The notes: generated by a model not told the origin, from the sequence alone. 63,372 nt of DNA, filler included, from Conidiobolus incongruus B7586 (GCA_000697335.1; 7 parts of 7 records of this genome joined end to end with filler, not necessarily neighbours in it), one strand, 5' to 3'. Shown: positions 5,180 through 63,372, numbered from the whole stretch's first letter. Translations and numbers: made by a program.

Positions 5180-5595
5180 TCTTTCACTTCGACCTTATCT
5201 CCATATTCTTTCCTAACAACATCATCACCACTTTCATAAACCTATTAATTTCCGATCCTGGCAATTCTGCCAGCATCACACAATGATTATCGCAATGAGG
5301 ACAGTATTCGTCAGTTTCGCCCAAATCCTTAATAAATGATGTTAATCAGCCCGAATTATACAATACTAAAGCATTTACCTAAAGTCATTACATAATACAT
5401 TTTTATACTTCTTACAAGCGAATATCAATTCATAAGTTGTTCAAAATTTGTGATCGGCTTGTTCAGTGTGACATTCACTACAGTCGAATCATGGCAAGAG
5501 CATTAATTTCGGATTGATACCCAGGGATTGCTATTACATTGTTGGTATAATGATATAGCGAGAGTTACTTGAGTGTTTTTAATATATTTAAACAT
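5180..5595 (-). pseudogene. Pseudogene of small fungal CHY zinc-finger protein (MCKHILNAQV...FDCxECH...FACKKCKK...DEYCPHCDNH family)
   Basis: Minus strand reads MFKYIKNTQV.../intron/ *FDCSECHTEQADHKF*TTYELIFACKKYKNVLCNDF /intron/ DLGETDEYCPHCDNHC. In-frame TGA, loss of several conserved Cys (C>F, C>Y), first intron lacks an AG acceptor, apparent 1-nt frame slip at second intron. Family assignment from remembered motif pattern. Confidence 0.75.
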
Positions 5596-5994
5596 CTGAT
5601 TTAATAATAATATTGAATAATGATTTAAATTTAAATGAATATGATATTTGAGTTGAAAAAGTTATTTAATGATATTACATTAAATTAGAAATTAAACTAT
5701 TCCCGAAATTTTAACTAATTCTTTGCATATCTAAAATTATTTAATCAATACCTAGATAAACTATCACTTGTAGCATAAATAATTAGATATTAATTTAAAT
5801 TAGCATTTAGTTTCAAATAGTACAGCACTTAATTCACCATTGTCATCATTACTCAAATATTCACAATTCTTGCTATATTTCAATTAATTATTAAGTTAAA
5901 TTTTAATTTATTAAATAAATAAAATTAAAATATTTAAATGTTTAATATAAACACATTCAATAAATGCAATATATATATGAAAATATTTTTAAAG

Positions 5995-12124: not shown

Positions 12125-13876
12125 TTTGTTATTTTTATTATCCTTTAATTTGATTTTAAATGGATTAGATTGAATGGAGTTGGATTTTTTTACCTTGGCA
12201 TTGAGGGTTTTTATATTGTGATTTTAGATATTACCTCATGATTATTTAATCAGAGTTCTTAATTGCATATTGATTAGAATTTAACCAATCATTAGTGAAT
12301 TAATATCAAGATTACTTTCATATGAATCTTAGATTTCAAAAAATTAATTTGGATAGAATAATGATTATTTTATGATTGGATAATTTGAATAATTTTTAAA
12401 ATTTCTCCAAAATTTAATATAATAATATTCATAATCAGTATATTAATAGATAATAAATAAAATACCATTTTCAATTTAAGCTTATATTAGAAGTTAAATC
12501 GATGATCATTCACAATATAACTGCTATTATTAAAAGATTCAATTAGAACTGAATCAAAAAAATTGAAATTTAATATAAAATAATATTATAACTTTAATTT
12601 TGTAACAAATATCCCATATTTGCAATTATTGATTTAATAATTAGTCCAAATATTTCTGGAATACTGGATTTAATATATATATGTATGTATGTTTTCCAAT
12701 TTTACTGTTCATCAAATTTTGTCTGAAATGAAGTTTTGTTAACTTGATTAATTTTTTCTAATGGTGTTCAATGTAATCAATGTAAAAATTATAAAGTTAT
12801 ATTGTGGTTTCTTAGATAGTAACCCGTCCGACCAACTCCTTGCGATTTATTACCTTATGGAGATAAAACTTGAGAACATCAGTCACACCTAATACGCTTT
12901 TTTATACTACCTACGGCAATTGAATGGGCTACAAAAGAGCCATTATTGGAATACTTTTTCATCACCATTTTCTGTCTTCTGTGAAGCCCATTAAACCGTA
13001 AAAATCATCATAAACCAAATTATCAAACAAACCACGAGCAATCTGCTGCATTCCCTACTATCAACTCTTAACTAGTAATCTGTTGAACCAAGATACCTTG
13101 GTTGATGATTTTGGTAATACCTTTCAATAGTGGTATATATAGCTTTTAATCAATATAAATGACTTAATTTATTTACATAATTTCTCCTTAACTGTTAAAT
13201 TTTAACTCATAATAAACACAAGTATTTAATAAATTGTTTGAAATATATTTAAAACTTGAGCTATTAATTTTTATAATAATATCAAAATACTAGTAGATTT
13301 TGAAATGTTCAGAAATACTTGGTTTAGGCTCGAATACTTTTTTCTCTTGCACAATACTATTTGTTGGTAGATAATATCTGATTAATTTGCTGAAATTATT
13401 AAGGCAATATTGATTTTCAATTTTAATCTTATATTTTGAATTTAAAATTAAAAATAAATTGATAAAAATTTTAAGGGAATCATAAAATTAAAAAAGATAA
13501 AACTCTAATTTAATATGAAGTCTAATATATAGAACTTTTTTGAATCTAAATAGACATTATATATTATATTGATATCTTCAATTAAAAATATATATATATA
13601 TTGGTTTATAATATTAAGTTATAAAAATCAAAATTATATATATTTTTAATAATTACTTAATCAGTTTTTAAACATATAAATTTAATCTAGAATATATAAA
13701 TAAAATATATTATTTAACTATATTAAATTAATTATTGCTCAAGATATTAAATCTTGAAATTTAAATAAAATATATTATATATTAATAAGTTATGGTTTTA
13801 TTAAAAAAATTAGAATTCTCTATATATATCTTTAGTTTCTTAATTTATTTAAATATATATTATATAAAGTTAATTA

Positions 13877-19595: not shown

Positions 19596-19635
<40 letters not shown>

Positions 19636-21142: not shown

Positions 21143-21145
<3 letters not shown>

Positions 21146-21179
<34 letters not shown>
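21146..21179. repeat. (AT)n microsatellite
   Basis: About 17 AT units; similar tracts at 8221-8242 and 19601-19630. Confidence 0.9.
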
Positions 21180-21182
<3 letters not shown>

Positions 21183-22241: not shown

Positions 22242-22273
<32 letters not shown>

Positions 22274-22295
22274 CATTATTATTATTACTATTATT
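22242..22295. repeat. (ATT)n microsatellite
   Basis: Near-perfect ATT run; similar tracts at ~8728-8759, ~15812-15841, ~35921-35948 and 55244-55283. Confidence 0.9.
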
Positions 22296-23819: not shown

Positions 23820-23834
23820 CAATCGACTATAAAA
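23820..23834 (+). promoter_or_regulatory. CCAAT and TATA box of cyclin gene
   Basis: CCAATCGAC-TATAAAA (TATA 23828-23834) followed by a pyrimidine-rich, ATG-free leader up to ATG 23960. Confidence 0.55.
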
Positions 23835-23959
23835 AGGAACTTAATTATCAAGTTATAACACAACAAACTAACCAACCTTATAGTCATATTTCCTACTTCT
23901 ATTTTTCTGTATATATTGTACTCTCTCTAATTATTCCTCATAGAATTCTCATTTCTAAA

Positions 23960-25943: not shown

Positions 25944-25973
25944 GAAGGAGAAGGAGAAGGAGAAGGAGAAGGA
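25944..25973 (+). repeat. (GAAGGA)5 purine hexamer repeat
   Basis: Direct reading. Confidence 0.85.
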
Positions 25974-32819: not shown

Positions 32820-33095
32820 ATTGATAAATTATGATATTAAATAAATACAGGTATATATTAAATAGATAAATTAGAGACAAACAAAGTTATTTTGGGAAAT
32901 GATATTGTTAGATTGTATTTTGATTAAATAAACGGACAAGATCGAGACTAATACTATGTACACAAACTAAATATCAAGTTTCGAGGCTTAAATAACAGAG
33001 TAGCAATACAAGAGGTAAATATAAGAGTGAAAGGTTTGAATGGAGAAACGAGATAATTAAGTAAATGATCAAGTCAGATGATTAAGAGAAAGGGA

Positions 33096-37836: not shown

Positions 37837-37936
37837 NNNNNNNNNNNNNNNNNNNNNNNNNNNNNNNNNNNNNNNNNNNNTTAATTAATTAANNNNNNNN
37901 NNNNNNNNNNNNNNNNNNNNNNNNNNNNNNNNNNNN

Positions 37937-38586
37937 ATTTATTAATTTAGATATAATTAAAAAAATATATAATTTATAAAGATGAAATATCTATAAAAAT
38001 TAATATTAAGAAAAATTTATATATTATATATAAAAAATTTAAAAACACAATTTATTAATATATATTAAAAAATCAAAAATCATTTTTGGATAGGATAATA
38101 ATTATTATTGATAAAAGGTTCAAAATTATAAAAAAACTATAAAGTATTTTTTTGCTTGTTTGATCTTAATTTATTTAAATATATTTAGAATTAATTAAAA
38201 ATAACAGTTAAAATTTTCCTTTAGAAAAAAATTTAAATAAACTTCAAAAATTAGTATAAGAGAATTAAAAACACTAGTCTTTTTTAATTTAAAAAGTTAA
38301 TTTAATTTATACTCTATATACTGATTATAATAGCAATTGATTTATATATTTAGTTTTGATTTTTTATCATAATTAAAAACTTGTAAATTTGTGATATATC
38401 CTATCTAAACTTTAATTTTAATATATTAACCAAAAATTAATATTTTTAGTCAAATATATTTTATTATAAATAGTTAACATATTTTAATTATATTATTAAA
38501 TTTAGCTGATTTGATCCAAAATTAATTAAATTATTAATAAAAATATAAATCATTTTGATTTTATTATTTATTTTTGCAAATTGATA
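37937..38586 (+). mobile_element. Tc1-family relic, 3' half with terminal repeat
   Basis: IIFG*DN, DLNLFKYI*N*LK (cf. DLNPIEHIWDQLK), inner-repeat motif ~38375-38405, terminal ...TTTTTGCAAATTGATA|TA matching the family TIR. Confidence 0.65.
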
Positions 38587-40712
38587 TATATAGTTTAAAT
38601 CATTCATTTTTTTGCTTTTTATATATTTTTTAAGATTAATAATATAATTGACAAGTCTGAAATTAAAATTTCCTATTTTTTTAATTTCAAGACTATGATA
38701 TTAATAGAGTTATAATATTATATCCTTTTTTTAGAATTTTATATATTGGTAAAATATATTTAAAATATTTTAAGTTTTGTAAATAATTATCAAAATACTA
38801 ACTTGAAATTAGATAATTTTTTACTATCAAATCATTTGAATAGATTAATATTTTTTTATTATTTTTTTATATTTCATTTAAAATTTCAAATTCAGATTAT
38901 AGTATTAAATCAATTGAACTTTGATTTATAGTATATATTTCATATAGTTGGACATATAACGAAAGCAAGGATCACAAATATTATTATATTTAAAATAATT
39001 AAATGTATAGCATTTAAATATTTTATCTATCACTATAAAATATAATAAAATAACTAATATATATTTAAACTCAAATTTTTGATGATATAAACTATTTAAT
39101 GATTTATTAACTCTAAAAAAATTTTAACTTAAATTGATATTGAATAATATATGATTTTATATATTAAAATTAAAATTTTGATATATAAGTTTGAAATTTA
39201 AAATAACGTTGAAATCATTAAATAGTTGATAATTAAATAATTATCCTATTATAATGACTTGACAAATATGTTTTTTACCTTTGATCAATTTAAAGACTGA
39301 TATCTATTAATTTTGAGTTTATTGAAATATTTTTCTTGGTTATCTTATCTCAAAATATAATTTTTGTTTTTGATAAATATATTAGCTAATTTTTTACATG
39401 TATTTTATAATAATTTATACAGTTTATTCTATAATTATAAAAATATTAAAGGATAAATGGTTGAACATTTAATTAAAAAATATGAGTAAAAAATTAATCA
39501 TCTTTTTGTTTAAAAAATACACAAAAATGATAAAATATGAATATTTAGAGTTTTTCAATTATTGTTTAAATAATGAACTACAAATGAATGTACTCTAATT
39601 ATAATCAATATAATGATATAAAAATCAATCAAAAATCATTACATAGAAATATATCTCTCAATATAATTATATATATTATTTTTCAAATTTGTTAATAGGA
39701 ATTAATCAATTGTTTTATTTTATAAGTCTGTAAACAAAGATTGTTGTTAGAAAAGTACTAGTAGTATGATTTAGCAATTCTGCTCTTTATCATATTAGGA
39801 TTGTATATCTAAAGATTACTTAGTGTTGAGACATCATAGCAGAATATCCAGGAAAATTAGAGTCCCTTTTCTATCCTTACCACTTCTGGGTTCCAATAAT
39901 TCATTCAGTGTTGACATAGGTTTTGGATAAATTCTAATACAAAGGAGCTAAAGAACATCATTTGATTATGGACCAACAGATCTACTATAAATGGGAGGCA
40001 ATATGGACTTAACTATTGAATCTAGACGGACAGATATTTTTTTTGAAATATAACACAATATCATATTAATATATTGAAAAATTATATTTTTAGTATATTT
40101 ACCACATTATATCTCAAGTCTGTAAAATTCTTTTATAATCTCATTAATAAATAAATATATTATTTTTAATATCATTTATAATAAACTCAATAATTTGGAA
40201 AAACAAAATAGATAATTTCATATATTAGTAACTTTTCAGATATGATGATACATATGATTAATTTAAAAAATAAAATGCTATATGATTTACTAATCTTAAT
40301 TATTTAATTTAAGAAATTATCAAATTAAAAAATATGCTTGATAAACATATAAAATAATATAAACTTAAATAATGTCATATTATTTAAGTTAAAATATAAT
40401 TCGAAATATAATAACTTTTTTTGATTAATATAATTGGTTAAAAAATAGGATACCAGAGATAAATATATCATTTATTGGAAAATAAAAGTAGTTTTTTAAT
40501 TCTCAAGAATATGTTGAAATGTTAAAAGCATTAACAGATATAAGTTTTATATATTTCATAAATTACGATAACTAAATATTATACCAATATTACTATAAGT
40601 TTGAAAACCCCTTGAACTAATCTTTAAGCAAACTATACTATACTATCAATTACAAGTCACATTAAATATCCTAAACCCAGTTAACCCCATTAAAATAGTT
40701 AACACTTCGCTA

Positions 40713-46660: not shown

Positions 46661-47051
46661 ATTGGTAGAATGTTGAAAACAGTGTGCAACAGCAAATCAG
46701 TATAAGAACCCATACCAAGTTTTGCAAAAATTCAAGATCTGTGAGTATGATTATATTATTGAAATAAAACCTTATCAGTTCAAACTTTCAAAATATTTTA
46801 TATTTTACACTCATTTTTGTTTAAATTAGACCATTAAATCAAGGTTATCTGAATGCTATAATTTATTTATATAAATTAACTCAAAACTATTTTTAAATAT
46901 GTATTTTGAAACTGATTTACTAATAATGGTTAATCAAGATATAATTAAAGATATGAATTTTAAGCTAAGTACATTATATTACAAAAAATTAATTTTATAA
47001 TCAATAATTAATTCAAAATTTGTTGCACAATGTAGTAAGTCAATATATATA

Positions 47052-47346
47052 CACAAGCCCACAAAAGCAGGATATAAAATTAAAATCACTTATCTTTTTA
47101 TTATTAGCTTAATCAATTTTGATTTAAATTAACTTATATTTAACTATATAATTAATATATATTTTTTATATATAATATTATTTATAGTTAAAATTAATTA
47201 ATTATTAATTGATATATTAAAACTAAATATTTAAATAAGGTAAGTTTTAAACTTATTGGTTTTATTTATCATATGAAAATTAATATTTAATATATTTACC
47301 TTTTATTTTTTAATTCTTTTAAGTATATAAGGTATAAAATGAATTA
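47052..47346 (-). mobile_element. Tc1-family relic, 3' end, interrupted by a mariner
   Basis: TA|CACAAGCCCACAAAAGCAGG... matches the family TIR (CACTGATCCACAAAAGTAAG); inner repeat AAGGTAAGTTTTAAA ~47237; degenerate C-terminus (...KGKYIKY*) on minus strand. Confidence 0.7.
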
Positions 47347-48004: not shown

Positions 48005-51000
48005 NNNNNNNNNNNNNNNNNNNNNNNNNNNNNNNNNNNNNNNNNNNNTTAATTAATTAANNNNNNNNNNNNNNNNNNNNNNNNNNNNNNNNNNNNNNNN
48101 NNNNATAATATAGGTAAAAATTCAAAAATTAAAAAAATTTTCTATTTTTTTATTTTCAACAAATAATAATTATAAAATTTTAATAATATTTAAATCCCTC
48201 TATAATTAATAAAATATTTTTTAATTATCTAAATATATATTTATTTATTTTTTAAGTTTAAGGAATTATAATATTAATTTTTTTACTCTCGTTACTATAA
48301 TATCAAATAGAATATTATATTAAAATATTATTACTTAAATTTTAAGATATCTAAAATTCGAATATATATAAGTATTATTACTATTATTATTATGAATTAT
48401 CTTTATATAAAGTTTCAACAAATATATAAAGTTAAATAAAATTTTCATTAATATTAGAAATTATTTATAAAATTAAATATAGTAAATTTGATAGAGAAAA
48501 AAAACATTAAATCTTAAAATATAAATGATTTTAATTCAGGTATTTTTATATATTAATTAAATTTTCATATTAATTAAACCAAAATTATTTTAATTCAAAA
48601 TCAAAAAATTACGTATGATTATTATAGAATAGATAGATATTATATCTATAGTAGACGAGTTAGTTATAAATATTAACATTATATCTTATAAAATTTTATA
48701 TTATATATTAAAACTAAAATATAAGAAAAATTAAATATAAAGGATAATCTATTAGAGTTCAAGAAAGAAAAATACCATACTTAAATTTTTTAAATTAAAA
48801 AATGAATTTCAATTGAATATAGTGTAAAAAACCAATAGGTTTTTCAATATGCAAATAACTATATATATATATATTTAAAAGTAATTAATTTAAGTATTTA
48901 TCTATAAAATTAATCATAACCAAACTAATTCAAGACCATTGGAATAAAGTTTTATTATGATTATATATATAGACTAATTTGTCTCTTATATTATTATGAA
49001 ATATAAACATATATAAGAAATTGAAATTATTTAACAAAAAATAATTTGAAATTATAAATTTAAATGAGTAAATAATTTTTAATATGATTTTTTATTATTC
49101 TAAACCTTTTCGATTTGAAAATTAAATTATTGATTATTAATATATAAACTAAAATAATATAAAATATTTTAAATGTGAAAAGTAAAGAAAAATTGAAAAT
49201 TGATTAAAAATGTATTATAATATTTATATTATTATTAGATATAATTATAACTTGATATTACATTATCAGATACTTCGCTTTAATTGGAATAGATTCTTTA
49301 TAAAAGAATTGAATACGATATGCTTGTCAATGGCGATTTGAGCTAATATTGATTATTCATTGTTTAATAGAAATTAATTTGAATATAAAATATTTGAAAT
49401 TATCAATTATTTATTAATATTTATTATTACTCATTGTGAACTATGTGTTGAAAAATCGGCAAAGTATCAGTTGTATAGAAGCAAAGAGAAGGATGATTGG
49501 GTAAGTAATTCTGTAAGAGACTTCGAGTGAAATCATAAAGCTTGATAAAGTACAGATTGAGCTAGATACTAATAGAATACATTACTAAAATTAATGAGTG
49601 AGCAAAGGAAATAGATTTGTGACAATTGAAATGAAGTAATATCCTAATTAACTAGTATACATCAAACTACTGGAGATATCCATGTATAACATATAGCTAT
49701 CAAAGAGGAATTTTATCATTCAATATTGTCTATTAATATTAGATAATAATAAAATCAAATTTCATATAATTTTATGAATATTAGTGTGTCATTTTATAGT
49801 TATATATTATGATACTATATTAAAAATTTTGAATATTTTAACATAATATTTTAAGAAAGAAATTTTAAATTACTTTTAAATATTTATTAAATGTGGCATA
49901 TCCAACTGAAAATTTTACTTTTAATATCAATATACAATTGATATTTTGAATAATAGCCTTATAATACTTCTCTTATTTGAGTTTTTATTCATTTTAATTA
50001 GAGTGATTCACTTAATTTTTCAAATGATATAGAATTCAATAATAGTTGAAATATAAGATATTAAAATAATTTAGAATTTAATAGAAATTGTTTAAATATA
50101 AATGGTATTAAAAATTTAAAAATTTAATAATTTAATTTAATATTATTTAAACCATATAAATTTAATTACATATTAAAAATATTTTTTATAACTAAGAAAT
50201 TAACATTTTATTGAAAAATTATCAATTTCAATGACATAATAGAATTGAGTTATTGTAAATTATTCAAGTTATTAATATTAAAAAAATAATTTATTTTAAA
50301 CGTCATATTAAATGCATAGATTGTAAAAGTATATTTACTAGTATTGTTAAAATATTGATATCTATTAATTATTAATTTTACACTTATCTATATCATAAAA
50401 TCAAATATAGAATTATCATATTTTAAATTATACATATATCAAGTCGCATTAATAGAAATTTCTTTTCACTTTTTATTATTATCAATATTAAGCTGTAAAA
50501 TTAACTAGGTTATTATAGTCAAGGAATCAGCACGGACTGTATCAAGGTAATCTTTTTAATAGAGTTCTTATTGATAACTATCAATATACATATTAAATTG
50601 CATTTCTAATGATCTAAATGAAATTTAATATTAGAATATTCATTAATGTGCAAAAAATGAAATACTAGCATTAGTTTGATCGCTATACATCAATAGAATA
50701 GAATGCTGTAAAATATATTCAGTAATATGATTAAATTAAAGGATTCTAACTCAAATTTAATAACGATTTAATAGATAAAAAGAGTATAAATTGGGTAATA
50801 TTTAATTAAAATAAATTTAGTCAACATTAACAAAATTACTAGAATTAGTCAAATGAAGTTGATTAAATCCACATGGTTGACAAATTTTGAAATGCATTAA
50901 ATTGATTACAATTTAACCTACTTAAGATTATATGGTTGGATCACTTCCGAAGCTTTTATTAATTTATTAATATAAGTCCTAAATGGTTTTATTGGATTTT

Positions 51001-53324
51001 AATATTTTTTTAAATTCAATGATTTAAGGTTGATTTGTAGAGTTTATCCATAGTTATATTATACAGAATTGGAAATATAAAATATGTATTTCAAAATTAT
51101 AATATATCAATTTATTAACGAGAGATTTTTAAAAGTGTTATGAATATTAATTTAATACGTAAAATGAATAACATTATAAATTTACAAAAGCAACTTAAAA
51201 ATTATATTTCTAATTTTTTAACACGAGAATATGAACAAATTCCAGTAATAAAATAAAAAGTGAAAAATTAAAATATTTGTATCACCTAAGATGTTAATTT
51301 ATCTATGAAAATAATAAATCAAATTTCAATTGTAATTTTTATCAGTTTTCAAATCTTGAAATATCTATTTCATTGTAAATTTGGAGTGATACTAAATGAA
51401 TGATACCAAATTTGATATCTAAAGGGACTTTGGTTGAATTGTACATGGTCATGATATAGGTGGATATTTGATGCTGGAAGCTGTGAGGTGCAACATGAAA
51501 GTTAGATGCTCTCTATATTTAGTATAATGAGGCATTTTTATACTTCCAAAAATTATTTAAATATTCAACTCTTTGAGATAATATATATTTATAGTTTCTA
51601 TGGTACTGAATACTGAATTATATTTAGTTCTATAATTTAAAAATAGCTGTAACATTCAATTATTAATTTCAATATCATTATATAATTACCATTGTACATC
51701 ATTATAAATCTGATATAAATATTTGAAAAATTATCCATTTTGATAATAAGTCAATATCAAAATAAATTTTAAATTCGAATATTCAAAATTAATTAATTTT
51801 AATGGATTTTAATTAGATCATGACTTTGTAATATATAGATTGAAATGTGCTTTTTATCAATATTATTCCTTACAATACTATCACTTCATGACAATTAGGA
51901 ATATGCTTATCTTTGAAAATATTATAAATAAACTAGTTTTAACAAATGAAATGATCAAAAATGGCTTAAATTTATTCTTTATATATCCTTAATAGATCTA
52001 AATGAGGCATATCGAGTATAGCATTCAGGACTAATACTCCATATCGAATTTATTAGCCTCAATTATATCATAAAAGTATTAAAAATAATCCAAAGCAAAA
52101 TAAATTATTGGATTAAACTCGATCAAATGAAATCTTTTACCAAGTTTAAATTAATGAATTAAAAAATTCATTAATATTTTTATTAAATTTCTCTTATTAA
52201 TAATATTATTTGGATTGAATTTAGCTCTATTACTAATTAAAGGTTAAGATTTTTACTAGTTTCTCCTATCAATATAATTTATCTGTTAGGTTTGATCTTT
52301 TGGTTTAGTGGATTGAATATAGCCACATTTTGTTTAACCCAAGTAATCCATCAATCTGTTTGTATGATAAAATTCTCATATAACGGAAAATAATTGTTAT
52401 AATACTTATGAAATTGGTTATTTTTAACATCATTTAATATTAAATCACAAAATAAACAAACAATTTTAAAGGATACAATGTTAAGAGTTTGTTCTATTAA
52501 TTAAAAGGATATTGAATACAATTTGTAAAGTGAAAATAAAAAGATAATGATCTATTTGATTTGAAAACTCGATTATACACTTGAATTTATCCAATTTAAT
52601 CACCAGTGATCATTTTGTTTAAACTATTAATTAAAAATGGAAAGGGTGATATTATGACTATTTTCGTTAATTACTCACTATTTTTAAGGGATTAAAGATT
52701 TTGATAGATTTCAAAAGAATCATTTATTGAATGCGAATATTATCAGATTATATCAATTAAATAATAATAATTAATTTTTTTGAGTATTTGATAATATTTA
52801 CTAGGTTATAAATTTCAGGCTGAATTCGTTTGATGTTTTTCCGGAATTAAATAATATTTGATTAGTACTAAGTTAAAAAAATTAAATATCTAATATAATA
52901 ATTAAAAGTAACTATATTATTATCATGCTTTTTAATTTATTAATTTAATACGTATTGTTAATTGTTATCTCTTATCATCAATATTAAAATATTAAAAAAA
53001 TATTAATAATTCTAAAATCATTATTTAACCTCATATTATCCAATTATACTAAAGTATTTTGAACTTTAAAAAACTGAAAGTTAATTTGATAGGATTTATC
53101 AGTAAATTAAAAAAATTTATTAAAATAAAAATTAGAAATTCAAAATAATTATGCAAAAGAATTAAGCTTAAGTAAATTTCCTATTGAAAACTCCACAATT
53201 ACCTAATTAACCTATCAGAATGTCGCATGGGAGTTAGAAAAATAAGATAAACCATTCTAAATCCAGTAAAATTCAGTTGAATCATTTAAGATTGTACAAT
53301 GTGAACAATGATGTATGTCTGGAA

Positions 53325-53332
53325 TATAAATA
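53325..53332 (+). promoter_or_regulatory. TATA box of hexosaminidase gene
   Basis: TATAAATA 60 nt upstream of ATG. Confidence 0.55.
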
Positions 53333-53392
53333 GGTCAGAATGCTTACTAGTAATTCAATAACAACCATTTTCACTTTGTAAATAATTACATC

Positions 53393-55090
53393 ATGGTTAA
53401 GCCTACCTTAATTATCACCACTTTACTTACCAGTGTCTTAGCTGGAGTTCACAACATTTTCCCCAAGCCTGCTGAATTAGTCAGCTCTGGTAACACTACC
53501 GTTGTCTTATCTAATGACTTTGAAATTTCTGTTGATTGCAAATCATCCAGACTTAAGGACGCTGCCAAGAGATACCAAAAGTTGATCAACAAGGAAAAAT
53601 ACTCTCCCATTGTTCCTCTCTTCAAAGCTACTCCCTCCAACTATCCTACTATCTTGAAGAATGTTAAGGTTGAAGTTGAAAATGGTGAAGACTCTGAATT
53701 TACCATCAAGACTGATGAATCTTATTCCATTGAAATCGCCCCCAAGGACAGCCGTGCTTCCGCTGTCATCAAGGCCAAGACTATCTATGGTGCTATCCAC
53801 GGTTTAGAATCTTTCTCTCAACTTGTCCAATACGACAAGAAGTCCAAGGTCAGCCACATTCCTGCCACCCCTGTCAAGGTCAATGACAAGCCTCTCTACC
53901 CCCATCGTGGTATTTTGATTGATACCAACCGTAATTGGTTGCCTCTTGATGTCCTCAAGCGTACCATCGATGCTATGTCCTACAACAAGTTGAATGTTTT
54001 CCACTGGCACATTCTTGATGCTCAAGATTTCAACTTCAAGTCTAAGTCTCACCCTGAACTCTGGAAATCCATGGGTGTCGTTGATGAAGATCAACTCTAT
54101 ACCTATGATCAAATCAAAGAATTGGTTGAATACGGTCTCCAACGCGCTGTTCGTATCATTCCTGAAGTTGAAGCTCCCGCTCATGCTTACTCCATTGGTA
54201 AGGCCTTCCCCGAACTCGGTACTTCTTTAGATGATGATGACTGGGATATCACCGCTGCCGAACCTCCCAGTGGTCAAATTGATCCTACTAACCCCAAGTC
54301 TCACAAAATTGTTCACGATTTGATCGATGAATTCGCTCAACTTTTCCCTGATCAATACATCCACTTGAGTGGTGATGAAGTTAACGAAAAGTCTTGGAAC
54401 TCTTCCGCCACCCTCAGAGAATATGTCAAGAAGAACAATGTTACCTTCGACAAGCTTTTGGGCGACTTCAACCTTGGTATGCAAGCTCAAGCCAAGAAGC
54501 ACAAGAAGTCCATTATGGTCTGGGAAGAAATTCTCTTGAATCACAATGTTACCCTTCCCTCTGATGCCTTAGTCCAAGTCTGGTTAGGTGCTAGTGACAC
54601 TAAGAAGGTCATTGAACGTGGACACGATGTTATTGCTTCCTCTTACCAATACTGGTACCTCGACTGTGGTCACGGTGCCTGGATCGGTGATGCTCCTTCC
54701 GGTTCCTCCTGGTGTGATCCCTACAAGCACTGGCAAATCGTTTACACCTACGATTTAGTTGCCAACTTGACCTCCACTCAAGCTCAGCGCATCAAGGGTG
54801 GTGAAGTTACTGCCTGGGCTGAACAAATTGATGAACATGTCATTGACAAGTACCTCTGGCCCCGTGCTTCCGCTGCCTCTGAAGTTCTCTGGACTGGTAA
54901 CCGCGATGGTGACAAGGTCCGCAGCACCAAGCACGTCCTTCCTCGTTTGAACGACTGGCGTTTCCGTATGGTCAGCCGTGGTATCTCCGCCGAACCCCTT
55001 CAACCCCTCTGGTGTGTAAAGAACCCCTACCGCTGTGATTCCACTAAGGGTCTTGAAAAGGTCAGAGCTCCCTATGTTCCCAAGGCTTAA
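53393..55090 (+). CDS. Secreted beta-N-acetylhexosaminidase, GH20, 565 aa
   Basis: Signal peptide, GH20b domain (DESY...TIYGAIHGLESFSQL), HRGILIDTNR, KLNVFHWH, PEVEAPAH, catalytic HLSGDEV, YLDCGHG, SWCDPYKHWQ..Y, GGEVTAWAEQ..LWPRASA; intronless, strong C/T-ending codon bias. Confidence 0.97.
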   Translation: MVKPTLIITTLLTSVLAGVHNIFPKPAELVSSGNTTVVLSNDFEISVDCKSSRLKDAAKRYQKLINKEKYSPIVPLFKATPSNYPTILKNVKVEVENGEDSEFTIKTDESYSIEIAPKDSRASAVIKAKTIYGAIHGLESFSQLVQYDKKSKVSHIPATPVKVNDKPLYPHRGILIDTNRNWLPLDVLKRTIDAMSYNKLNVFHWHILDAQDFNFKSKSHPELWKSMGVVDEDQLYTYDQIKELVEYGLQRAVRIIPEVEAPAHAYSIGKAFPELGTSLDDDDWDITAAEPPSGQIDPTNPKSHKIVHDLIDEFAQLFPDQYIHLSGDEVNEKSWNSSATLREYVKKNNVTFDKLLGDFNLGMQAQAKKHKKSIMVWEEILLNHNVTLPSDALVQVWLGASDTKKVIERGHDVIASSYQYWYLDCGHGAWIGDAPSGSSWCDPYKHWQIVYTYDLVANLTSTQAQRIKGGEVTAWAEQIDEHVIDKYLWPRASAASEVLWTGNRDGDKVRSTKHVLPRLNDWRFRMVSRGISAEPLQPLWCVKNPYRCDSTKGLEKVRAPYVPKA

Positions 55091-55243
55091 TTATAACGAA
55101 ATTTAATTAATTATTAACTTATTTCTTATTGCTTTTCATAGGTTTTTCACTGCGTTTTGAATTCGCAGAATTTTTATTCTAAAATAAAAGTTTTATTTAC
55201 TATTATTATCTCAAGGGTTTATGACTTTATTCAAATCTCTTAG

Positions 55244-55283
<40 letters not shown>

Positions 55284-56079
55284 GTTTATGAATTAGATAT
55301 CTATTTTTAAATTGTTTCCGGATAACGCCTACAAAAATGAATTGTATTACTATATTAGACATATATTAATTTTTTCCAAATTTTCACCTTAAAAGTCATA
55401 ATTTTCACATATTTAATAATTAGCATATTAAACTATTCAATTTTGAATAAATAAACTTAAAAATAAATCCTACTTACAATATTAATCTCTCAAGCTTATT
55501 ATCAAAACTAACTAGCATAGTCATATTTAGAGATTTTTAATTTTAATGATAATTTAACATTGTGCTTAATATTAATAAAAAAATTAAATAATTTTTAAAT
55601 TTAATTTCACAATTAACATAATTTAAAAATTCTCTAATAATAATATCAAATTGTTAAATTTAAATTGCTAAATATTTCTAATTCAAATTTTTCCATTTTT
55701 AATGATGTCAACTATGTTATATTTTAAATTTGATTTATATTCAATAATATCCACAAATTTTAGAATCCATTTAATTGAATTTTTATTATAATTATTCTTA
55801 GATAATAAAATTATATTATTCTTTTTTATTATATGTGATATATTGAATTTTCGAACAAATTTATACTTTATTAAATAATATAACAATTGGTTGCCTTATT
55901 AAATTAAAATTATAATTTAAATATTAAAAGAAAATATTATTATTATAAATATATCAATATTTTTTCATATATAAATATTATTTTAACTTATTTTAAAATA
56001 TGAATAGAGAAATTAAAAAATAATTAATTTTTAAAATCAAAAATTAAATAGGATTATTTAATATATGAATAATAAAAAT

Positions 56080-56403
56080 TAATACCCTTTTTTATTATAA
56101 ATTAATTTTTTATATATTTTTAGCAAGCTTATAACAATTTGAAATAATTATTTTGTAAACTAATTTAATTTATTTATAAAAATTTTTCTTTTATAAATAT
56201 ATCATTTAATTACCTAATATAATTATAATTATATAAAATATAATCAAATAAATATATTGAATATGGTTATTTTTCCCAATATATTTATATAAAAAATCCT
56301 TTATAATTTTGGATTTATGAACAATATAATTATTATATAAATTAATAAATAACTTGATAATTTTAAAAATATTTTATTGAAAAAATTATATAAAATTTAT
56401 AAT
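56080..56403 (-). mobile_element. Second mariner DD34D relic (runs into gap)
   Basis: LYNNYIVHKSKIIKDFL...WEK*PYSIYLFDYILYNY..IR; collinear with 47450-47760 (shared TTTTAGCAAGCTT). Left boundary approximate. Confidence 0.65.
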
Positions 56404-56827
56404 NNNNNNNNNNNNNNNNNNNNNNNNNNNNNNNNNNNNNNNNNNNNTTAATTAATTAANNNNNNNNNNNNNNNNNNNNNNNNNNNNNNNNNNNNNNNNN
56501 NNNATAATATTTAAAATAATATTATAATATTCAAAACTTTATTTAAAAAAGTTAATTCATATATTAATTAAATTTATAATATAAATAAATTAACTTATGA
56601 GATTATTAGAATTATTGATATTAGCTAGTTTACTATAACTAAAGTTATTAATAATATTATTAAAAAACAACTAAACTCAAACTTAAATATATTAAAACAA
56701 TAAATAAATATAATGAAAAATATATTTATAGATTAGTTAATATAGATAAATATGATATTATTATATAAATATAACAAGAATTATAAGATTATATAACAAT
56801 ATTAATTAATCTTAATATTGTTATATA

Positions 56828-58409
56828 TACTAGCTTGCAAAAATAAATTATAAAATTATAATTATATATACTATTATCAATAACTTTGTTAATTCTTAAT
56901 AAAATTAATTTAAATTAAAATATATAATAAACTTATGTTATTTATTTATAATTAAGTATATTTAATCTAATTATATTAACGTTTAGTTGATATATTAAAG
57001 TTTAAATTTTACTTAAGGTGAGTAATAAATTTGTGTATTTTAGTTATAGAAAGAAAATTAAAATTTAGTATATTTATCTTTTGCTTTCTTAACTTTCTTA
57101 AGTCTATAAGGTATAAAGTCAACTAACTTCTTATATTAAGAAAAATTAATTTTGTTCTAAGCTTCTTAAATATATTCTTAAAGCTTATTTAAATTTTTGT
57201 TGGTGTGAAAACTTTAATTACTTTTTTAACTAATCCTAAAGGTGTTTAATTAGATTAAAGTTAGGGGATTAAAGAAACCACTTTATAATTATTATTTTAC
57301 TATTTTTAAACTATTTGGTAGTAGAAATAATAATATAGTAAAAGGTATTATCTTGTTAAAAAATAACATCTGATTTATTTAACCTATACTATTCAATAGT
57401 TTTTTTTAATTCATTGTTTAGAATATTTTAATATATTTTAATATTAATTCCCTTATTAACTTTACAAAGATATCTTATACCAAAAGATAACATATATCCT
57501 TAAATTATAATTAACACATTATTATATTTTTTGGTTAAAATAACATAATGGTTATAAAGTAATTTTTTGTTTTTTTTTGAAATATCTAACTTTTTTATTA
57601 GATTTACTAAAGTATATTTTTGTTTTATTAGATTAAATAACCTTACTATAATTAATATTAGTTTAACTTTAGTAATGACATTTAAACTCTTACTTAACTT
57701 TATAATAGGATTTTTTAGTTGGGGGTGTTTTTTCTTAGAATATAAACAATATCTATTATAATGTAAAGTATATATAATAGTATTAATATTAACTAATATT
57801 CTTATATAGTTTTGTAATTCTTTTTGTATTTCTATAGTAGTATTATATTTACTTATATTAACTAACCTATTAATATATCTTTTATTTTATTTATTTATAA
57901 TTCTAATATACTTATGTTTAAGCTTAAATATAAAATTATTATAATTTTTAATAGCTTTAACTATAATAAACTAACTAGCACTAATAATTCTAATAATCTT
58001 ACAAGTTAATTTACCTTTACTATAAAGTTAATTAATATACAAGTAAATCTTTTTAAAGAGGGATTTAGGTATTTTGTTATTAATGTTATTTTTAATAATA
58101 ATTTACAATAATATTTTTAGTATATATATATATATATAATTTAATAAAAGAAAAAAAAATTTAAGTAATTTTTGTTTTATATACCCTTTTAACTCCTAAA
58201 CCTATAAATTTATAACTCACCCTATTTAAAATTTAAGATTTGATATATTAACCATAATATATTAAATATAATTAAATATAACCTATTATAATCAGATAAT
58301 ATACATTAATTATATATTTTAATTTAAATTAATTTAGTTAAGAATTGTTTAAGTTATAACTAAATATATAAGTGATTTTTATTTTATAACTTATTTTTAC
58401 AGGCTAGTA
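56828..58409 (-). mobile_element. Tc1 copy A, full length (1582 bp), hypermutated
   Basis: TA|TACTAGCTTGCAAAAATAA ... TTATTTTTACAGGCTAGTA|TA inverted termini; minus-strand KWFL*SPNFNLIKHL*D* (cf. WPPQSPDLNPIEHLWDQ). Confidence 0.9.
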
Positions 58410-58420
58410 TATATTTTATA

Positions 58421-59983
58421 TATTAATCTATAAAAATAAGTTATAAAATCAAAAACACTTATATTTTTAATAATAATTTAATTAATATTTAATAAAATAA
58501 ACTTAAATTAAATAATTAAAATTTATTATATTTATCAATAATATATATCATTAAATAATGATATTTTGCTATTAATTAGTTAAAATATAAATCCTTAAAT
58601 TTTACCTAAGGTGAGTTATAAATTTGTAGGTTTTTGGTGATAAAAAAAAATTAAAACCTAGTGTATCCACCTTTAACTTTTCTAACTTCTTTAAGTTTGT
58701 GGGGTATAGAATCAACTAACTTCTTACACTAGGAAGGGTTAATCTTGTTCTATACTTCTTAAACATATTCCTAAAGCTGATTTAAATCTTTTACTGGGGG
58801 AAAAGCTTTAATAGTTTTTTTTAACTGATCCCAAAGGTGTTTAATTAGATTAAGGTTAAGAGATTGAAGAAGCCACTTCATAACTATTATCTTGTTATTT
58901 TTAAGCTATTTGGTAGTAGAAGCTGTAGTATAGCAAGAGGCATTATCTTATTAGAAAATAATATTAAATTTATTTAACTTATATTATTTAATAATTTTTT
59001 TAATTTATTATTTAGAATACTTTAGTATATTTCAACATTAATTTCCTTATTAATTTTATAAAAACACCCTACACTTAAAAATAATATATATCCTTAAATA
59101 ACAATTAACCTACCATTGTACTTTTAGTTAAAATTAATATAATAGTTATAAAGTAGTTAAATATTTTTTTAAAGCATTTAACTTTTCTATTAAATTTACT
59201 AAAGTATATTTTGGTTTTATTAAACTAAACACCTTTATTTTAATTAATCTTAGTTTAATATTAGGGATGATATTTAAACTCTTACCTAGCTTTACAATGG
59301 GATTTCTTTAGTTAAAAATGTTTTTTCTTAAAGTATAAATGGTATTTATGTTAAAGTAAAATATATATAATAGTATTAATACTAACTAATATTTTTATAT
59401 AGTTTTATAGTTCCTGTTGTATTTTTATAATAATGTTACACTTACTTATATTAACCAACTTATAAATATCATTTTTATTATATTTATTTATAATTTTAAA
59501 ACATTTAAGTTTAAATTTATATATATCTTTATTGTTATTTTTGATAACCTTAACTATAATAAACTAGCTAACATTAATAATTCTAGTAATATCACAAGTT
59601 GATTTATCTTTTTTATAAAATTAATTGATATATAAATAGATTTTTTTAGAGAGGGATTTACATATAATAATACTAATAGAAAAAATTTAATATATTGATA
59701 AAATATTATATAAAATAATAACAAAGAGAGAAAAAAATATAGTTATATATTGTTAAATATATTCTTTATCTCAAAAACTTACAAATTTATAATTCACTTT
59801 AATTAAATATTAAGGTTAAATATTTTTGCCAATAATTTATTAAATATATCTAATTTTTTTTTCAAATAATATACCTTAACTATATATTATAGTTTTAAGT
59901 AATTTAATATTTATAATTGTTTTAATTATTAATTAAAATATATATATATTTTTTGTTTGATAACTTACTTTTATAGGTTAGTA
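58421..59983 (-). mobile_element. Tc1 copy B, full length (1563 bp), DD34E, hypermutated
   Basis: Inverted termini flanked by TA; IIF**DNASCYTTASTTK*LKNNKIIVMKWLLQSLNLNLIKHLWDQLK...KLVDSIPHKLKEVRKVKGGYTRF*, with 34 residues between D and the (E>K) position. Confidence 0.92.
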
Positions 59984-61021
59984 TATTAGAATAGATATTA
60001 CTTATATTATAACAAAAAACATCTTTAATTAAAGAAATTTTAATATAAAGTTAAACAAAAGTTGAAATATCCTTATGATAATTAAATCAAAATTAATTAG
60101 AGTAAAATTATTTAATCCAATAAAATAAAGATATATTTTAATAAATCTAATAAAAAAGCTAGATATTTCAAAAACAAAATAAAAAAACAAATTTATAACC
60201 ATTATGTTATTATAGCTAAAATTACAAAAATACATTAATTATAATTTAAAGATATATATTTTTCTAAATATAAAATATCTTTATAGAATTAATTAAGGAA
60301 TTAATACTAAAATAAATTTAATTATTTTAAACAATAAATTAAAGAATTTATTAAATAAAATAAATTAAATAAATTAATAATTATTTGTTAACAAAGTAAT
60401 ATCATTTGTAACACTATAATTTTTTCTAATAAATAACTTAAAAATAATAAAAATATTATTATAAAATAGTCTCTTTAATTTCTTAATTTTAACTTAATTT
60501 AATATTTTTGAGATTAAGTAATAGAATTAATTAAAGCTTTCCCATTAGTAAAAATTTTAATTAACTTTAAAAATATATTTAAGAAGCTTAAAATAATATT
60601 AATTTTGCTTAATATTAGAAATTAATTGACTTTATACTATATAAACTTAAGGAGGTTAAAAAAAACAAACAATAAATATATTAAATATTAATTTTTCTAA
60701 TAATACTAAAACTTATAATTTTTAACCTATCTTAAGCAAATTTTTAACTTAATATATTGATTAACAATGAATTAAATTTAAATTTATATATTATTTTATA
60801 AATAAATAAAATATTTTTATTATATAATTTAATATAAATTTATTTAAACTAAAATTAATTAAATTAATAATAAAAATAAAAGATTTTTAATTTTATAGCT
60901 TAATTTATAAGCTAGTAACGAAAATGAAATAACAAAATATTAAAATAATATAAAAAAAACTTAATATAACAGTAATATAGCATAAAATATAATAAAATAA
61001 TATAAAATATAAAATATAATA

Positions 61022-61348
61022 CACTGATCCACAAAAGTAAGTCATAAAATCAAAAACACCTATATTTTTACTAATAACTTGATTAATATTTAATGAAATA
61101 AACCTAAATTAAATAATTAAAATCTATTATATTTATTAGTTATATATATCATTAAATGATGATATTTAGCTATTAATTGGCTAAAATATAAACCCTTAAA
61201 TTTTACCTAAGGTGAGTTATAAATTTGTAGGTTTTTGGTGATAAAAAAAAATTAAAACCTAGTGTATCCACCTTTAACTTTTCTAACTTCTTTAAGTTTG
61301 TGGGGTATAGAATCAACTAACTTCTTACACTAGGAAGGGTTAATCTTG
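61022..61348 (-). mobile_element. Tc1 copy D, 3' end (least mutated TIR), truncated by gap
   Basis: TA|CACTGATCCACAAAAGTAAGTCATAAAATC...; ends of transposase KGGYTRF* on minus strand. Confidence 0.9.
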
Positions 61349-61448
61349 NNNNNNNNNNNNNNNNNNNNNNNNNNNNNNNNNNNNNNNNNNNNTTAATTAA
61401 TTAANNNNNNNNNNNNNNNNNNNNNNNNNNNNNNNNNNNNNNNNNNNN

Positions 61449-62941
61449 TCAAAAATATATATATTTTAATTAATAACTAAAACAATTATATATATTAAAT
61501 TACTTAAAATTATAATAAATAATTAAGGTATATTATTTAATAATAACTAAATATATTTAGATATATTTAATAAACTATTAGCAAATATATTAACCTTTAA
61601 TATTTAACTAAGGTAAGTTATAAATTTATAGGTTTTTGAGATAAAGGGATATATTTAACAATATATAACTATATCTTTTTTCTCTTTTTAATATTATTTT
61701 ATTTAATATTTTACAAATATATTAAATTTTTTTATTAATATTATTATACCTAAATCCCTCTCTAAAAAAATCTACTTATATATCAATTAACTTGATAAAA
61801 AAGGTAAATCAACTTGTAATATTGTTAGAATTACTAGTGTTAGCTAGTTTATTATAGCTAAGGTTGTTAAGAATAACAATAAAAAAATATTTAAACTTAA
61901 ACTTAAGCATGTTAAAATTATAGATGAATATAATAAAAAGTATATTTGTAATTTGGTTAATATAAGTAAATGTAATATTACTGTAGAAATATAACAAGAG
62001 CTATAAAACTATACAAGGATATTAGTTAACATTGATATTACTATATATATTTTATATTAACATAGATACCACTTATACTTTAAGAAAAAACACCACTAAC
62101 TAAAGAAATCCCATTATAAAACTAGGTAGGAGTTTAAATATCATCACTAATATTAAACTAAAACTAATTAGAATAAGGTTATTTAATCTAATAAAACAAA
62201 AATATACTTTAGTAGATTTAATAGAAAAGCTAGATACTTTAGAAAAGATACAAAACTACTTTATAACTATTATGTTAATTTTACCCAAAAATATAATAGT
62301 AGGTTAATTATTATTTAAGGATATATATTGTTTTTAGGTGTAGGGTATCTTTATAAAGTTAATAGGGGAATTAATACTAAAATGTATTAAAATATTCTGA
62401 ACAATGAATTAAAAAAAACCATTGAATAATATAGGTTAAATAAATCTAATATTATTTTCTAGTAAAATAATACCTCTTGTTATACTACAACTTTTATTAC
62501 TAAATAGTTTAAAAATAATAAGATAATAGTTATAAAGTAGCTTCTTCAATCTTTTAACTTTAATCTAATTAAACATCTTTAGGATTAATTAAAAAAAGCT
62601 ATTAAAGCTTTCTTTTTAATTAAAAATTTAAATCAACTTTAAAAATATATTCAAGAAATATAAAACAAGATTAACCTTTCTTAGTGTAAAAAGTTAGTTG
62701 ATTCTATACCCTACAAACTTAAAGAAATTAGAAAAGTTAAAGTTAGATACACTAAGTTTTAATTTTTTTTATCACCAAAAACCTACAAATTTATAACTTT
62801 CCTTAGGTAAAATTTAAGGGTTTATATTTTAGTCAATTAATAGATAAATATCATCATTTAATTATATATATAATTAATAAATATAATAGATTTTAATTAT
62901 TTAATTTAAATTTATTTTATTTATTAATAATTAAATTATTA
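61449..62941 (+). mobile_element. Tc1 copy E, near full length; dead transposase 61746-62762 (339 codons' length)
   Basis: (ATA)PKSLSKK...GKSTCNIVRITSVS*FIIAKVVK (HTH), *NKVI*SNKTKY (WNKVIWSDETKY), F**NN, QSFNFNLIKHL*D*, ...YTKF*. Start ATG mutated to ATA. Confidence 0.92.
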
Positions 62942-63372
62942 AATGATAATATTTATTATTAATTAATTAAAATATCAACTTTTAAATTTTACTTAAGATA
63001 ATTTTAAATTTATAAGTTTTTAATGATAAAAAAAATTAAAACCTAATGTATTTACCTTTAACTTTTTTATATTTTTTATGTTTATAAGGTAAAAAATTAA
63101 TGAACTTGTTATATTAAAAATGGTTAATTTTGTTTTATATTTCTTAAACATATTCCTAAAATTAAATTAAATTTTTTAGTAAAGGAAAAACTTTAATAAT
63201 TTTTTTAACTAATCTTAAAATTATTTAATTAAATTAAAGTTAAATGATTAAAAAAGCTACTTTATAATTATTATTCTATTATTTTTAAGTTATTTAATAA
63301 TAAAAGTTATAATATAACAAAAGGTATTATTTTATTAGAAAATAATATTAGATTTGTTTAACTTATATTATT
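62938..63372 (-). mobile_element. Tc1 copy F, 3' part, fused tail-to-tail to copy E; continues beyond window
   Basis: Collinear with copy B ~58550-58990; outer ~130 bp of the terminal repeat missing. Confidence 0.85.

What the first reader, a model, noticed from the sequence alone, without database searches (positions are those of the whole stretch)
56504..63372. RIP-like, repeat-specific C>T/G>A hypermutation at CpA and CpT in an apparently non-Dikarya fungus
Seen: over 90 aligned nt (D 61022-61111 vs B 58421-58510) there are 13 differences; 12 are C>T or G>A in the same direction (7 in CpA/TpG, 5 in CpT/ApG) and 1 is a transversion. Transposase codons decay the same way (CAA>TAA, TGG>TAG/TAA, ATG>ATA, GAA>AAA, CCA>CTA), both strands are hit, copies are mutated independently, and length is largely kept (copy E start to stop is 339 codons). 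I saw only about two CpG in this ~6.7 kb. Nearby non-TE DNA, including the dead CHY gene, keeps many CpG/CpA. Established: RIP is characterised in Ascomycota (CpA bias, RID/DIM-2) with RIP-like patterns in some Basidiomycota; passive CpG methylation decay does not explain CpA/CpT hits. Inference: if the host is an early-diverging fungus, this indicates a poorly characterised homology-directed genome defence or non-CG methylation/deamination system.
Basis: partly seen in the sequence, partly recalled or inferred. Interest (0 to 1): 0.9.

Follow-up and report, generated by a model that had tools for sequence, protein, structure and literature searches.

The report
Transposon-confined C-to-T hypermutation in Conidiobolus
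Dead transposon copies in an early-diverging fungus close to Conidiobolus coronatus have had more than half of their cytosines changed to thymine on both strands while neighbouring genes keep theirs, likely the scar of repeat-targeted DNA methylation, a RIP-like defence in a group where it is disputed.

Summary
56504-63372 holds seven copies of a Tc1 (DD34E) transposon in a Conidiobolus-like fungus (GH20 84% to C. coronatus). I polarised changes against intact Tc1 relatives. At residues invariant in five of them, copies A, B and E show C:G>T:A at 164 of 285 fixed C:G sites, against 7 C:G transversions and 3 A:T>G:C of 285 A:T sites. Contigs from runs holding this genome's DNA give 359 transition places of 404 on copy B. 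The cluster keeps 2 CpG in 6,781 nt and is CpA-depleted; GC-matched non-coding DNA is not. One correction: the order is CG 0.80 > CA 0.72 > CT ~0.54 > CC 0.38, so CpG is hit hardest and CpC is hit too. Best reading (0.55): all-context methylation of transposons by a DIM-2/DNMT1-type enzyme, followed by deamination. True homology-triggered RIP is not excluded (0.25). No genome was available, so methyltransferases and a single-copy mutation spectrum are untested. RIP indices were already reported in Entomophthorales, while a kingdom-wide survey scored C. coronatus 'no_rip'. This is alignment-level evidence on that disagreement, not a new kind of system.

The parts
56505..56830 (+). Copy G: 5' part of the Tc1 transposase, heavily mutated, cut by the gap and by copy A
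56826..58411 (-). Copy A: near full-length Tc1 element, CDS GC 17%, 0 CpG in the CDS (ends approximate)
58419..59985 (-). Copy B: full-length element with about 250-nt terminal inverted repeats (70% alike today); mutation load uneven, lighter in the last third of the CDS
   Evidence: family-wide contigs laid
59990..60918 (+). Copy C: 5'-truncated and most diverged by transversions (ends approximate)
61020..61348 (-). Copy D: least mutated 3' end and terminal repeat, flanked by TA, cut by a gap
61449..62970 (+). Copy E: near full-length element
61746..62762 (+). Dead transposase of copy E: 339 codons, 23 internal stops (TAA/TAG only), start codon and D,D34E triad mutated; aligns without gaps to intact Tc1 protein P0122 (DDE_3 + HTH_Tnp_Tc3_2)
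62860..63372 (-). Copy F: 3' part, heavily mutated, cut by the window end
38160..38597 (+). Older relic of the same family on the contig that carries the RAV1-like gene; 0 CpG
47048..47346 (-). Older relic of the same family at the other end of that contig; 0 CpG
13595..13876 (-). Terminal-repeat relic of the family at a contig end
53393..55087 (+). GH20 hexosaminidase gene used to place the host; not mutated
5180..5600 (-). Control: broken CHY-zinc-finger-like gene (name from a recalled motif) with an in-frame TGA at 5443-5441; keeps CpG and CpA

Best explanation
These Tc1 transposon copies have lost more than half of their cytosines to thymine on both strands while nearby genes keep theirs, likely because a DIM-2/DNMT1-type enzyme methylates transposon DNA in all sequence contexts and the methylcytosines are then likely deaminated. 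Shown: the element family (Tc1, DD34E), the direction, the size of the excess, the context order CG > CA > CT > CC, and the compositional confinement to the repeat. Inferred: methylation as the cause, the enzyme, heterochromatin or small-RNA targeting, and accumulation over time rather than in one premeiotic burst. Whether deamination is passive or enzyme-assisted (as in the Zymoseptoria Dim2 mutator) cannot be told from sequence.
For: Direction and size: at 131 residues invariant in five intact relatives, 369 of 391 codons of B, E and A are explained by C>T/G>A alone. C:G>T:A hits 164/285 sites, C:G transversions 7/285, A:T>G:C 3/285; the intact relatives against each other give 9/420, 13/420 and 18/442. 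Undoing only C>T/G>A explains 117/223, 118/222 and 123/220 differences to P0122 (null 36-38), while C>A/G>T gives 25-27 (null 40-42). Context: CG 24/30, CA 52/72, CT 14/26, CC 36/96; CG 47/54, CA 56/78, CT 38/75, CC 48/123 with one outgroup; pairwise CA 0.55, CT 0.36, CC 0.19. Three CDSs keep 0 CpG where 11-20 would survive at the CpA rate (intact relatives L001-L004 hold 46-86 each). CG-first with all contexts hit resembles a methylation profile: DIM-2 methylates all contexts (10.1101/115501, passages), and Phycomyces TEs carry CG and CHH 5mC with DIM2 and DNMT1 (PMC11258239, passages). Load rises with age: older copies F, C, G show 104/130 with 12/262 transversions, against 164/285 with 13/570. 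No clear strand-coordinated runs in B, E or A. Family-wide: 180 of B's 269 C/G places show T/A in at least 3% of depth, against 9 transversion places.
Against: No methyltransferase and no 5mC were seen in this organism (no genome). [quoted passage not shown] Zoopagomycota are described as 5mC-poor overall (PMC11258239, passage). CpA mutates about 100 times faster than A:T>G:C (only 3 events in the denominator), high for purely passive deamination (recalled mammalian CpG excess 10-15x). The Z. tritici Dim2 mutator spares CG and hits CA in >98% of cases (PMC8016269), unlike here. B has a patchy load (chi2 p=0.00025; runs p=0.0004), and weak strand runs appear in C (p=0.03) and in E-private changes (p=0.046), which would suit episodic RIP. 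Context counts are sites times three related copies, not independent events.
Confidence: 0.55

Rival explanations
1. True RIP: duplicated DNA is detected by homology around zygospore formation and C>T changes are introduced in bursts, by a RID-independent or RID-like methyltransferase.
For: Very high C>T excess with length kept; CpA is the top non-CpG target (CA vs CC p=1e-5); composite RIP index +0.63 in the cluster against -0.53 in GC-matched non-coding DNA; patchy load in B; RIP index of 24.2% of the genome in Z. radicans (PMC11105155, passages); C. coronatus has few near-identical repeats (791 hits of 100 bp or more at 95-100% vs 28,853 at 80-95%; PMC12543289 supplement).
Against: CpG is hit hardest and CpC substantially, whereas RIP prefers CpA (PMC4352252 and 10.1101/115501, passages). 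No robust strand coordination in B, E or A. RID is listed for Ascomycota only (PMC13297926, table passage). C. coronatus was scored 'no_rip' and keeps four GH20 paralogs at 71-85% protein identity (weak, since they may be too diverged to be targets).
Confidence: 0.25
2. Ordinary AT-biased mutation acting on dead, originally GC-rich (about 50%) elements, with no repeat-specific process.
For: The whole window is AT-rich (non-coding GC 19.8%, CpG o/e 0.64). Intact relatives are 46-59% GC, so decay must run AT-ward. The single-copy mutation spectrum was not measured.
Against: The TE spectrum implies an equilibrium GC of about 3%, far below 16-20% non-coding GC. C:G>T:A outnumbers C:G transversions about 23:1. 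CpA is depleted in the cluster (o/e 0.64) but enriched in GC-matched non-coding DNA (1.16) and in the broken CHY-like gene (1.25); CA/CT is 0.49 against 1.35, while intact relatives have 1.07-1.40.
Confidence: 0.1
3. An AID/APOBEC-type cytidine deaminase edits single-stranded transposon DNA.
For: An almost pure C>T spectrum.
Against: Both strands are hit about equally (331 vs 381); there is no 5'-base preference (A 0.36, C 0.37, G 0.48, T 0.39) but a clear 3'-base preference; a cut-and-paste element has no long single-stranded intermediate (established knowledge).
Confidence: 0.05
4. Assembly artefact: short-read contigs of a high-copy repeat are chimeric or error-laden.
For: Contigs are joined by N gaps with a spacer; B and D are identical over 156 columns next to a gap, and B's light patch coincides with the deepest family coverage.
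Against: The transition excess is in the run contigs themselves (359 of 404 places in X1, 360 of 410 in X2, same sample); errors would not follow codon ancestry. At most this explains the patchiness and the order of copies.
Confidence: 0.05

Closest known systems
Dim2-dependent TE methylation and mitotic C>T mutator of Zymoseptoria tritici (PMC8016269; passages and part 1 of 2 of the Discussion read)
   Same: Repeat-confined, almost pure C>T; CpA depletion and TpA gain in TEs; needs no RID-specific meiosis.
   Different: There >98% of changes are at CA and CG is spared; here CG is hit hardest and CT and CC are hit too. The host here is Zoopagomycota, and the enzyme is not identified.
Repeat-induced point mutation of Neurospora crassa, RID and DIM-2 branches (10.1101/115501, PMC4352252, PMC13297926; passages)
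   Same: C:G>T:A on both strands of repeats, TAA/TAG stops, length kept, positive composite index, CpA the top non-CpG target.
   Different: CpG is the top target here; homology trigger, premeiotic timing and RID are not shown; no clear strand coordination.
RIP-index signal and two-domain PF00145 methyltransferases in Entomophthorales (PMC11105155 / PMC10515909; passages; 3 supplements searched without a hit)
   Same: Same order of fungi; RIP-like composition of repeats (Z. radicans 24.2%).
   Different: That work used dinucleotide indices only, gave no value for Conidiobolus in the passages read, and did not polarise mutations or measure contexts.
CpG-signature C>T decay of TEs in basidiomycetes and Tuber (PMC4352252, passages); CG and CHH 5mC on Phycomyces TEs (PMC11258239, passages)
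   Same: CpG lost first; methylation followed by deamination proposed.
   Different: Here non-CpG sites are lost at 38-72%, well beyond a CpG-only signature.
Tc1 (DD34E) transposons, e.g. unnamed P0122 and metagenome loci L001-L004
   Same: 338-339 codons, HTH_Tnp_Tc3_2 + DDE_3, TA-flanked terminal repeats with the same end motif.
   Different: The relatives are intact and 46-57% GC; the window copies are dead and 11-20% GC in the CDS (the short copy D piece 33%).

Membership tests
Tc1/mariner, DD34E Tc1 group | DDE transposase with HTH domain, D,D34E spacing | tested here: met
   Gap-free alignment to P0122 (DDE_3 E=1e-20, HTH_Tnp_Tc3_2), triad at 149/241/276; mutated in the window copies. 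Copy E itself gets no Pfam hit.
Tc1/mariner, DD34E Tc1 group | Terminal inverted repeats flanked by TA | tested here: met
   About 250-nt TIRs in B; D's end matches the ends of L001, L002 and L004.
RIP (Neurospora type) | Strong directional C:G>T:A excess in repeats on both strands | tested here: met
RIP (Neurospora type) | CpA as the dominant target | tested here: not met
   CG 0.80 or higher > CA 0.72 > CT 0.54 > CC 0.38; CpA leads only among non-CpG sites.
RIP (Neurospora type) | Confined to repeats, sparing single-copy DNA | tested here: inconclusive
   Met by composition; the single-copy mutation spectrum and the copy number of the control DNA were not obtained.
RIP (Neurospora type) | Triggered by sequence duplication whatever its origin | not testable with these tools
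   No non-TE duplicate in the window; no genome.
RIP (Neurospora type) | Episodic, strand-coordinated, premeiotic | tested here: inconclusive
   No strand runs in B, E or A; weak in C (p=0.03) and E-private changes (p=0.046); B patchy, possibly from assembly. Timing not testable.
RIP (Neurospora type) | RID/Masc1 (or DIM-2) gene present and required | not testable with these tools
   No genome; Bewick 2019 not held; the presence/absence data of PMC12543289 were not found in the supplements I could read.
DIM-2-type all-context TE methylation with deamination | C>T in all CpN contexts, confined to TEs | tested here: met
DIM-2-type all-context TE methylation with deamination | 5mC on TE copies and a DIM-2/DNMT1-class gene | not testable with these tools
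   Only assembled contigs are served; no genome.
Z. tritici Dim2 mitotic mutator | CA-only mutation sparing CG | tested here: not met
   CpG lost completely, CT and CC hit.
Non-Dikarya host (Entomophthoromycotina) | Host genes group with Conidiobolus | tested here: met
   One gene: GH20, 84% identity, clade support 100 in a quick tree of 37 rows that held no Dikarya sequence, because none of the named rows among the top 120 hits was Dikarya. The RAV1-like gene gave one unnamed hit at a strict cut-off.

The most novel reading that the evidence does not exclude
Zoopagomycota possess a genuine homology-triggered, RIP-like mutator that works without RID and prefers CG > CA > CT > CC. Repeat-induced mutation would then predate Dikarya or have arisen twice, and k-mer surveys miss it in AT-rich genomes.
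Probability: 0.25. Interest if true: 0.85.

Novelty: new variant of a known kind. Interest (0 to 1): 0.5.

Why it matters
Whether RIP-like defence exists outside Dikarya is disputed in print: one study reports RIP indices in Entomophthorales with caveats (PMC11105155), another finds signatures only in ascomycetes and scores C. coronatus 'no_rip' (PMC12543289). Here the mutations are polarised against intact relatives and their contexts measured, and they show a transposon-confined C>T process in a Conidiobolus. Conidiobolus species can be cultured and form zygospores (recalled), so mutation in vegetative growth and through sex can be compared directly. The result also suggests that k-mer screens miss such signatures where non-coding DNA is already AT-rich. 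If the cause is plain methylation and deamination, it mainly adds a lineage and a context profile.

Tried and rejected
Whole-genome searches for RID, DIM-2, DNMT1, DNMT5 and deaminases: no genome held. A single-copy mutation spectrum and the copy number of control DNA were not obtained, so that control rests on composition only. No RNA holder was listed. A 'C wins' ancestor built from the copies still had 15 internal stops and only 3 CpG, and it counts private T>C changes as ancestral, so I rely on outgroup-fixed sites instead. The single-outgroup site set has a sizeable chance component (143 of 453 C:G sites in shuffles), so the five-outgroup set carries the claim. The Fisher p-values treat seven copies as independent and overstate significance; single copies show the same ratios (CA+TG 60-74 vs CT+AG 141-144). 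The CHY-like gene found no Pfam family among 144 short ORFs and no homolog. The RAV1-like search was too strict to name a host. The careful GH20 tree did not finish; the quick tree was used. Leakage at the cluster edge cannot be read, because an assembly gap lies there. CpG-only decay was rejected: CA and CC sites fixed by Q/H/W/C/M/P/G codons are hit. An APOBEC-like TpC bias was rejected. Paper searches listed no alignment-level study of repeat mutation in Conidiobolus; subscription papers are largely missing from that library. Earlier scan notes: none for this genome or this sequence.
Full report
Host. No whole genome is held. The GH20 gene at 53393-55087 is 84% identical to a Conidiobolus coronatus protein; the next named species is Neoconidiobolus thromboides at 55%. 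In a quick ML tree of 37 rows (the query and 36 of the 120 listed hits) it lies in a clade with four C. coronatus paralogs at SH-aLRT 100. None of the named rows among the 120 was Dikarya. A search with the RAV1-like gene gave one unnamed hit at my strict cut-off, so the placement rests on one gene. Contigs are joined by N gaps with a spacer, so the adjacency of the cluster to GH20 is not proven. However, relics of the same element lie on the gene-bearing contigs (38160-38597, 47048-47346, 13595-13876), and run X1 holds both 86% of the words of 48105-56400 and the element.

The element. 56504-63372 is seven copies (G, A, B, C, D, E, F) of a 1.6-kb element with about 250-nt terminal repeats. 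Copy E has a 339-codon frame without frameshift and 24 stops, all TAA or TAG. An intact unnamed protein, P0122, aligns to it without gaps (E 1.9e-53) and carries DDE_3 and HTH_Tnp_Tc3_2. The triad is D149, D241, E276 (DD34E); D149 is mutated in 4 of 4 and E276 in 5 of 5 copies tabulated. The family is large: 17,517 contigs of run X1 and 23,304 of X2 (one sample) lie on copy B. This gives no copy number.

The 90-nt D/B comparison has 13 differences: 7 CpA, 5 CpT and 1 transversion. D is ancestral, since its end matches the terminal repeats of intact loci L001, L002 and L004. The 90 nt are the most divergent part of the pair: 156 neighbouring columns are identical. There are exactly 2 CpG in the cluster.

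Direction and size, tested without circularity. I fetched 72 metagenome loci with relatives of P0122 and examined 11 of them, all among the top 12; they are 46-59% GC, and 10 of the 11 hold 46-86 CpG per reading frame (L011 holds 12). At the 131 residues invariant in P0122 and L001-L004, with no filter on the window copies, 369 of 391 codons of B, E and A follow from C>T/G>A alone. Fixed C:G sites show 164/285 transitions and 7/285 transversions; fixed A:T sites show 3/285 transitions and 6/285 transversions. The intact relatives against each other give 9/420, 13/420, 18/442 and 21/442. A permutation test with P0122 alone agrees: 117-123 differences per copy are explained by C>T/G>A against a null of 36-38, while C>A/G>T gives 25-27 against 40-42. 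Small excesses of T>C/A>G (B, A) and A>C/T>G (B) also appear there. Family-wide, X1 lists 404 variable places on copy B at a share of at least 3%: 359 transitions and 45 transversions. Of B's 269 C/G places, 180 show T/A and 9 a transversion. Both strands are hit (331 C>T, 381 G>A).

Context. Residue-fixed contexts give CG 24/30, CA 52/72, CT 14/26 (AGR plus AGY codons) and CC 36/96. The single-outgroup set gives 47/54, 56/78, 38/75 and 48/123. Pairwise differences give CA 0.55, CT 0.36 and CC 0.19, with little effect of the 5' base. The CDSs of A, B and E keep 0 CpG, where 11-20 would survive if CpG mutated at the CpA rate from 46-86 starting sites. So CpG is the top target, invisible in pairwise comparison because none is left, and CpC is hit too, partly after its neighbour changed. 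Among the 40 of 423 rows shown, the 16 places where B has T/A and the family keeps C/G at 87-99% include no CpA site (contexts); the tool's selection rule is unknown, so this is weak support. All these counts are sites times related copies.

Confinement. The cluster has CpG o/e 0.05, CpA o/e 0.64 and a composite RIP index of +0.63. GC-matched non-coding DNA (43 windows of 500 nt) has 0.57, 1.16 and -0.53; coding DNA 0.76, 1.11 and -0.44; the broken CHY-like gene 0.91, 1.25 and -0.73. The TE spectrum implies an equilibrium GC near 3%, against 16-20% in non-coding DNA, so it is unlikely to be the genome-wide spectrum (inference; it assumes non-coding DNA is near equilibrium). A direct single-copy spectrum was not obtained, which leaves the general-bias rival weakened but open. 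The older relics have 0 CpG in 1,265 nt but an index near zero (-0.04).

Episodic or gradual. Older copies F, C and G have both more C>T (104/130) and more transversions (12/262) than B, E and A (164/285; 13/570). This fits steady accumulation or repeated rounds. Strand runs are absent in B, E and A, and weak in C (p=0.03) and in E-private changes (p=0.046). B is patchy (p=0.00025), but its light patch coincides with the deepest family coverage and may be a collapsed assembly or gene conversion.

Mechanism. CG first, all contexts hit, both strands and confinement to the transposon fit best with all-context methylation of TE DNA by a DIM-2/DNMT1-type enzyme and loss of 5mC by deamination (0.55; enzyme, 5mC and targeting all inferred). 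If non-coding GC of about 17% reflects the background, the TE excess is about 10-fold (my estimate), within reach of dense methylation. Against A:T>G:C alone the CpA excess is about 100-fold, which leaves room for an enzyme-assisted step. Homology-triggered RIP remains possible (0.25); general AT bias (0.10), a deaminase (0.05) and assembly artefact (0.05) are weaker.

Literature, and what I saw. PMC11105155 / PMC10515909 (passages; 3 supplements searched, no hit): RIP index 24.2% in Z. radicans and 2.4-5.7% in three other Entomophthorales; methyltransferases with two PF00145 domains that the authors decline to call RID homologs; all fungi of their set are said to encode PF00145 domains. PMC12543289 (abstract, sections 8 and 9, passages; files 1-12 of 19 supplements searched, three further tables too large to read): signatures only in ascomycetes; C. 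coronatus 'no_rip'; unread supplements may hold its methyltransferase status. PMC8016269 (passages, part 1 of 2 of the Discussion): Dim2-dependent mitotic CA>TA. 10.1101/115501, PMC4352252, PMC11258239, PMC7862722, PMC13297926 and PMC6572847 (passages only; the last reports no RIP in chytrids). Bewick 2019 was not held. Seven searches listed no alignment-level study in Conidiobolus. This scan already holds 69 findings with similar wording, those shown being from Endogonales-like and Dimargaritales fungi; they are unchecked AI notes, not support, but they make this less singular.

Verdict. A real, strong, transposon-confined C>T process in a Zoopagomycota fungus, with context order CG > CA > CT > CC. 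It works like RIP in outcome, fails the CpA-dominance feature of Neurospora RIP, and is untested for homology trigger, timing and enzyme. New variant of a known kind; interest 0.5.

Noticed in passing
window 5180-5600 (-): Broken CHY-zinc-finger-like gene (name from a recalled motif) with an in-frame TGA at 5443-5441 and an apparent intron; no Pfam hit or homolog found; copy number unknown.
   Followed up: partly
window 13877-13976, 28320-28419, 37837-37936, 48005-48104, 56404-56503, 61349-61448: All six gaps are two 44-N runs around a 12-nt stretch; the two I read are the same AT spacer with stops in all frames, so contigs are likely joined artificially and their order may not be genomic.
   Followed up: partly
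window 58590-58950: Patch of copy B that is lightly mutated and identical to copy D over 156 columns; collapsed assembly or gene conversion.
   Followed up: partly
window 9257-11365 (+): Intron-less 703-aa ORF with only a weak BRCA2 OB2 hit (E 0.0013, below cut-off); possibly an OB-fold protein of unknown identity.
   Followed up: no
window 7547-7620 (+): tRNA-Lys(TTT) gene.
   Followed up: no
window 11519-12124 (-), 23747-24709 (+), 31572-32828 (+), 2388-4860 (+), 43094-46660 (+): Ordinary host genes: AhpC/TSA-2 redoxin and a cyclin (Pfam); forkhead factor and NOT3-like gene (names by recalled motifs); RAV1-like gene (its one hit carries PF12234).
   Followed up: no
L011:463-1446: A Tc1 relative from a metagenome contig has CpG o/e 0.20 with CpA o/e 1.42 and one stop: CpG-only decay in another host, a contrast to the window copies.
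   Followed up: no
window 13977-31500: About 17 kb with only one recognised gene (the cyclin) and no Pfam hit among the short ORFs tested; CpA-rich, so unlike the mutated Tc1 copies.
   Followed up: partly
window 55400-56403: Very AT-rich (11.6% GC) flank with 1 CpG but a negative RIP index (-0.97); origin unknown.
   Followed up: no
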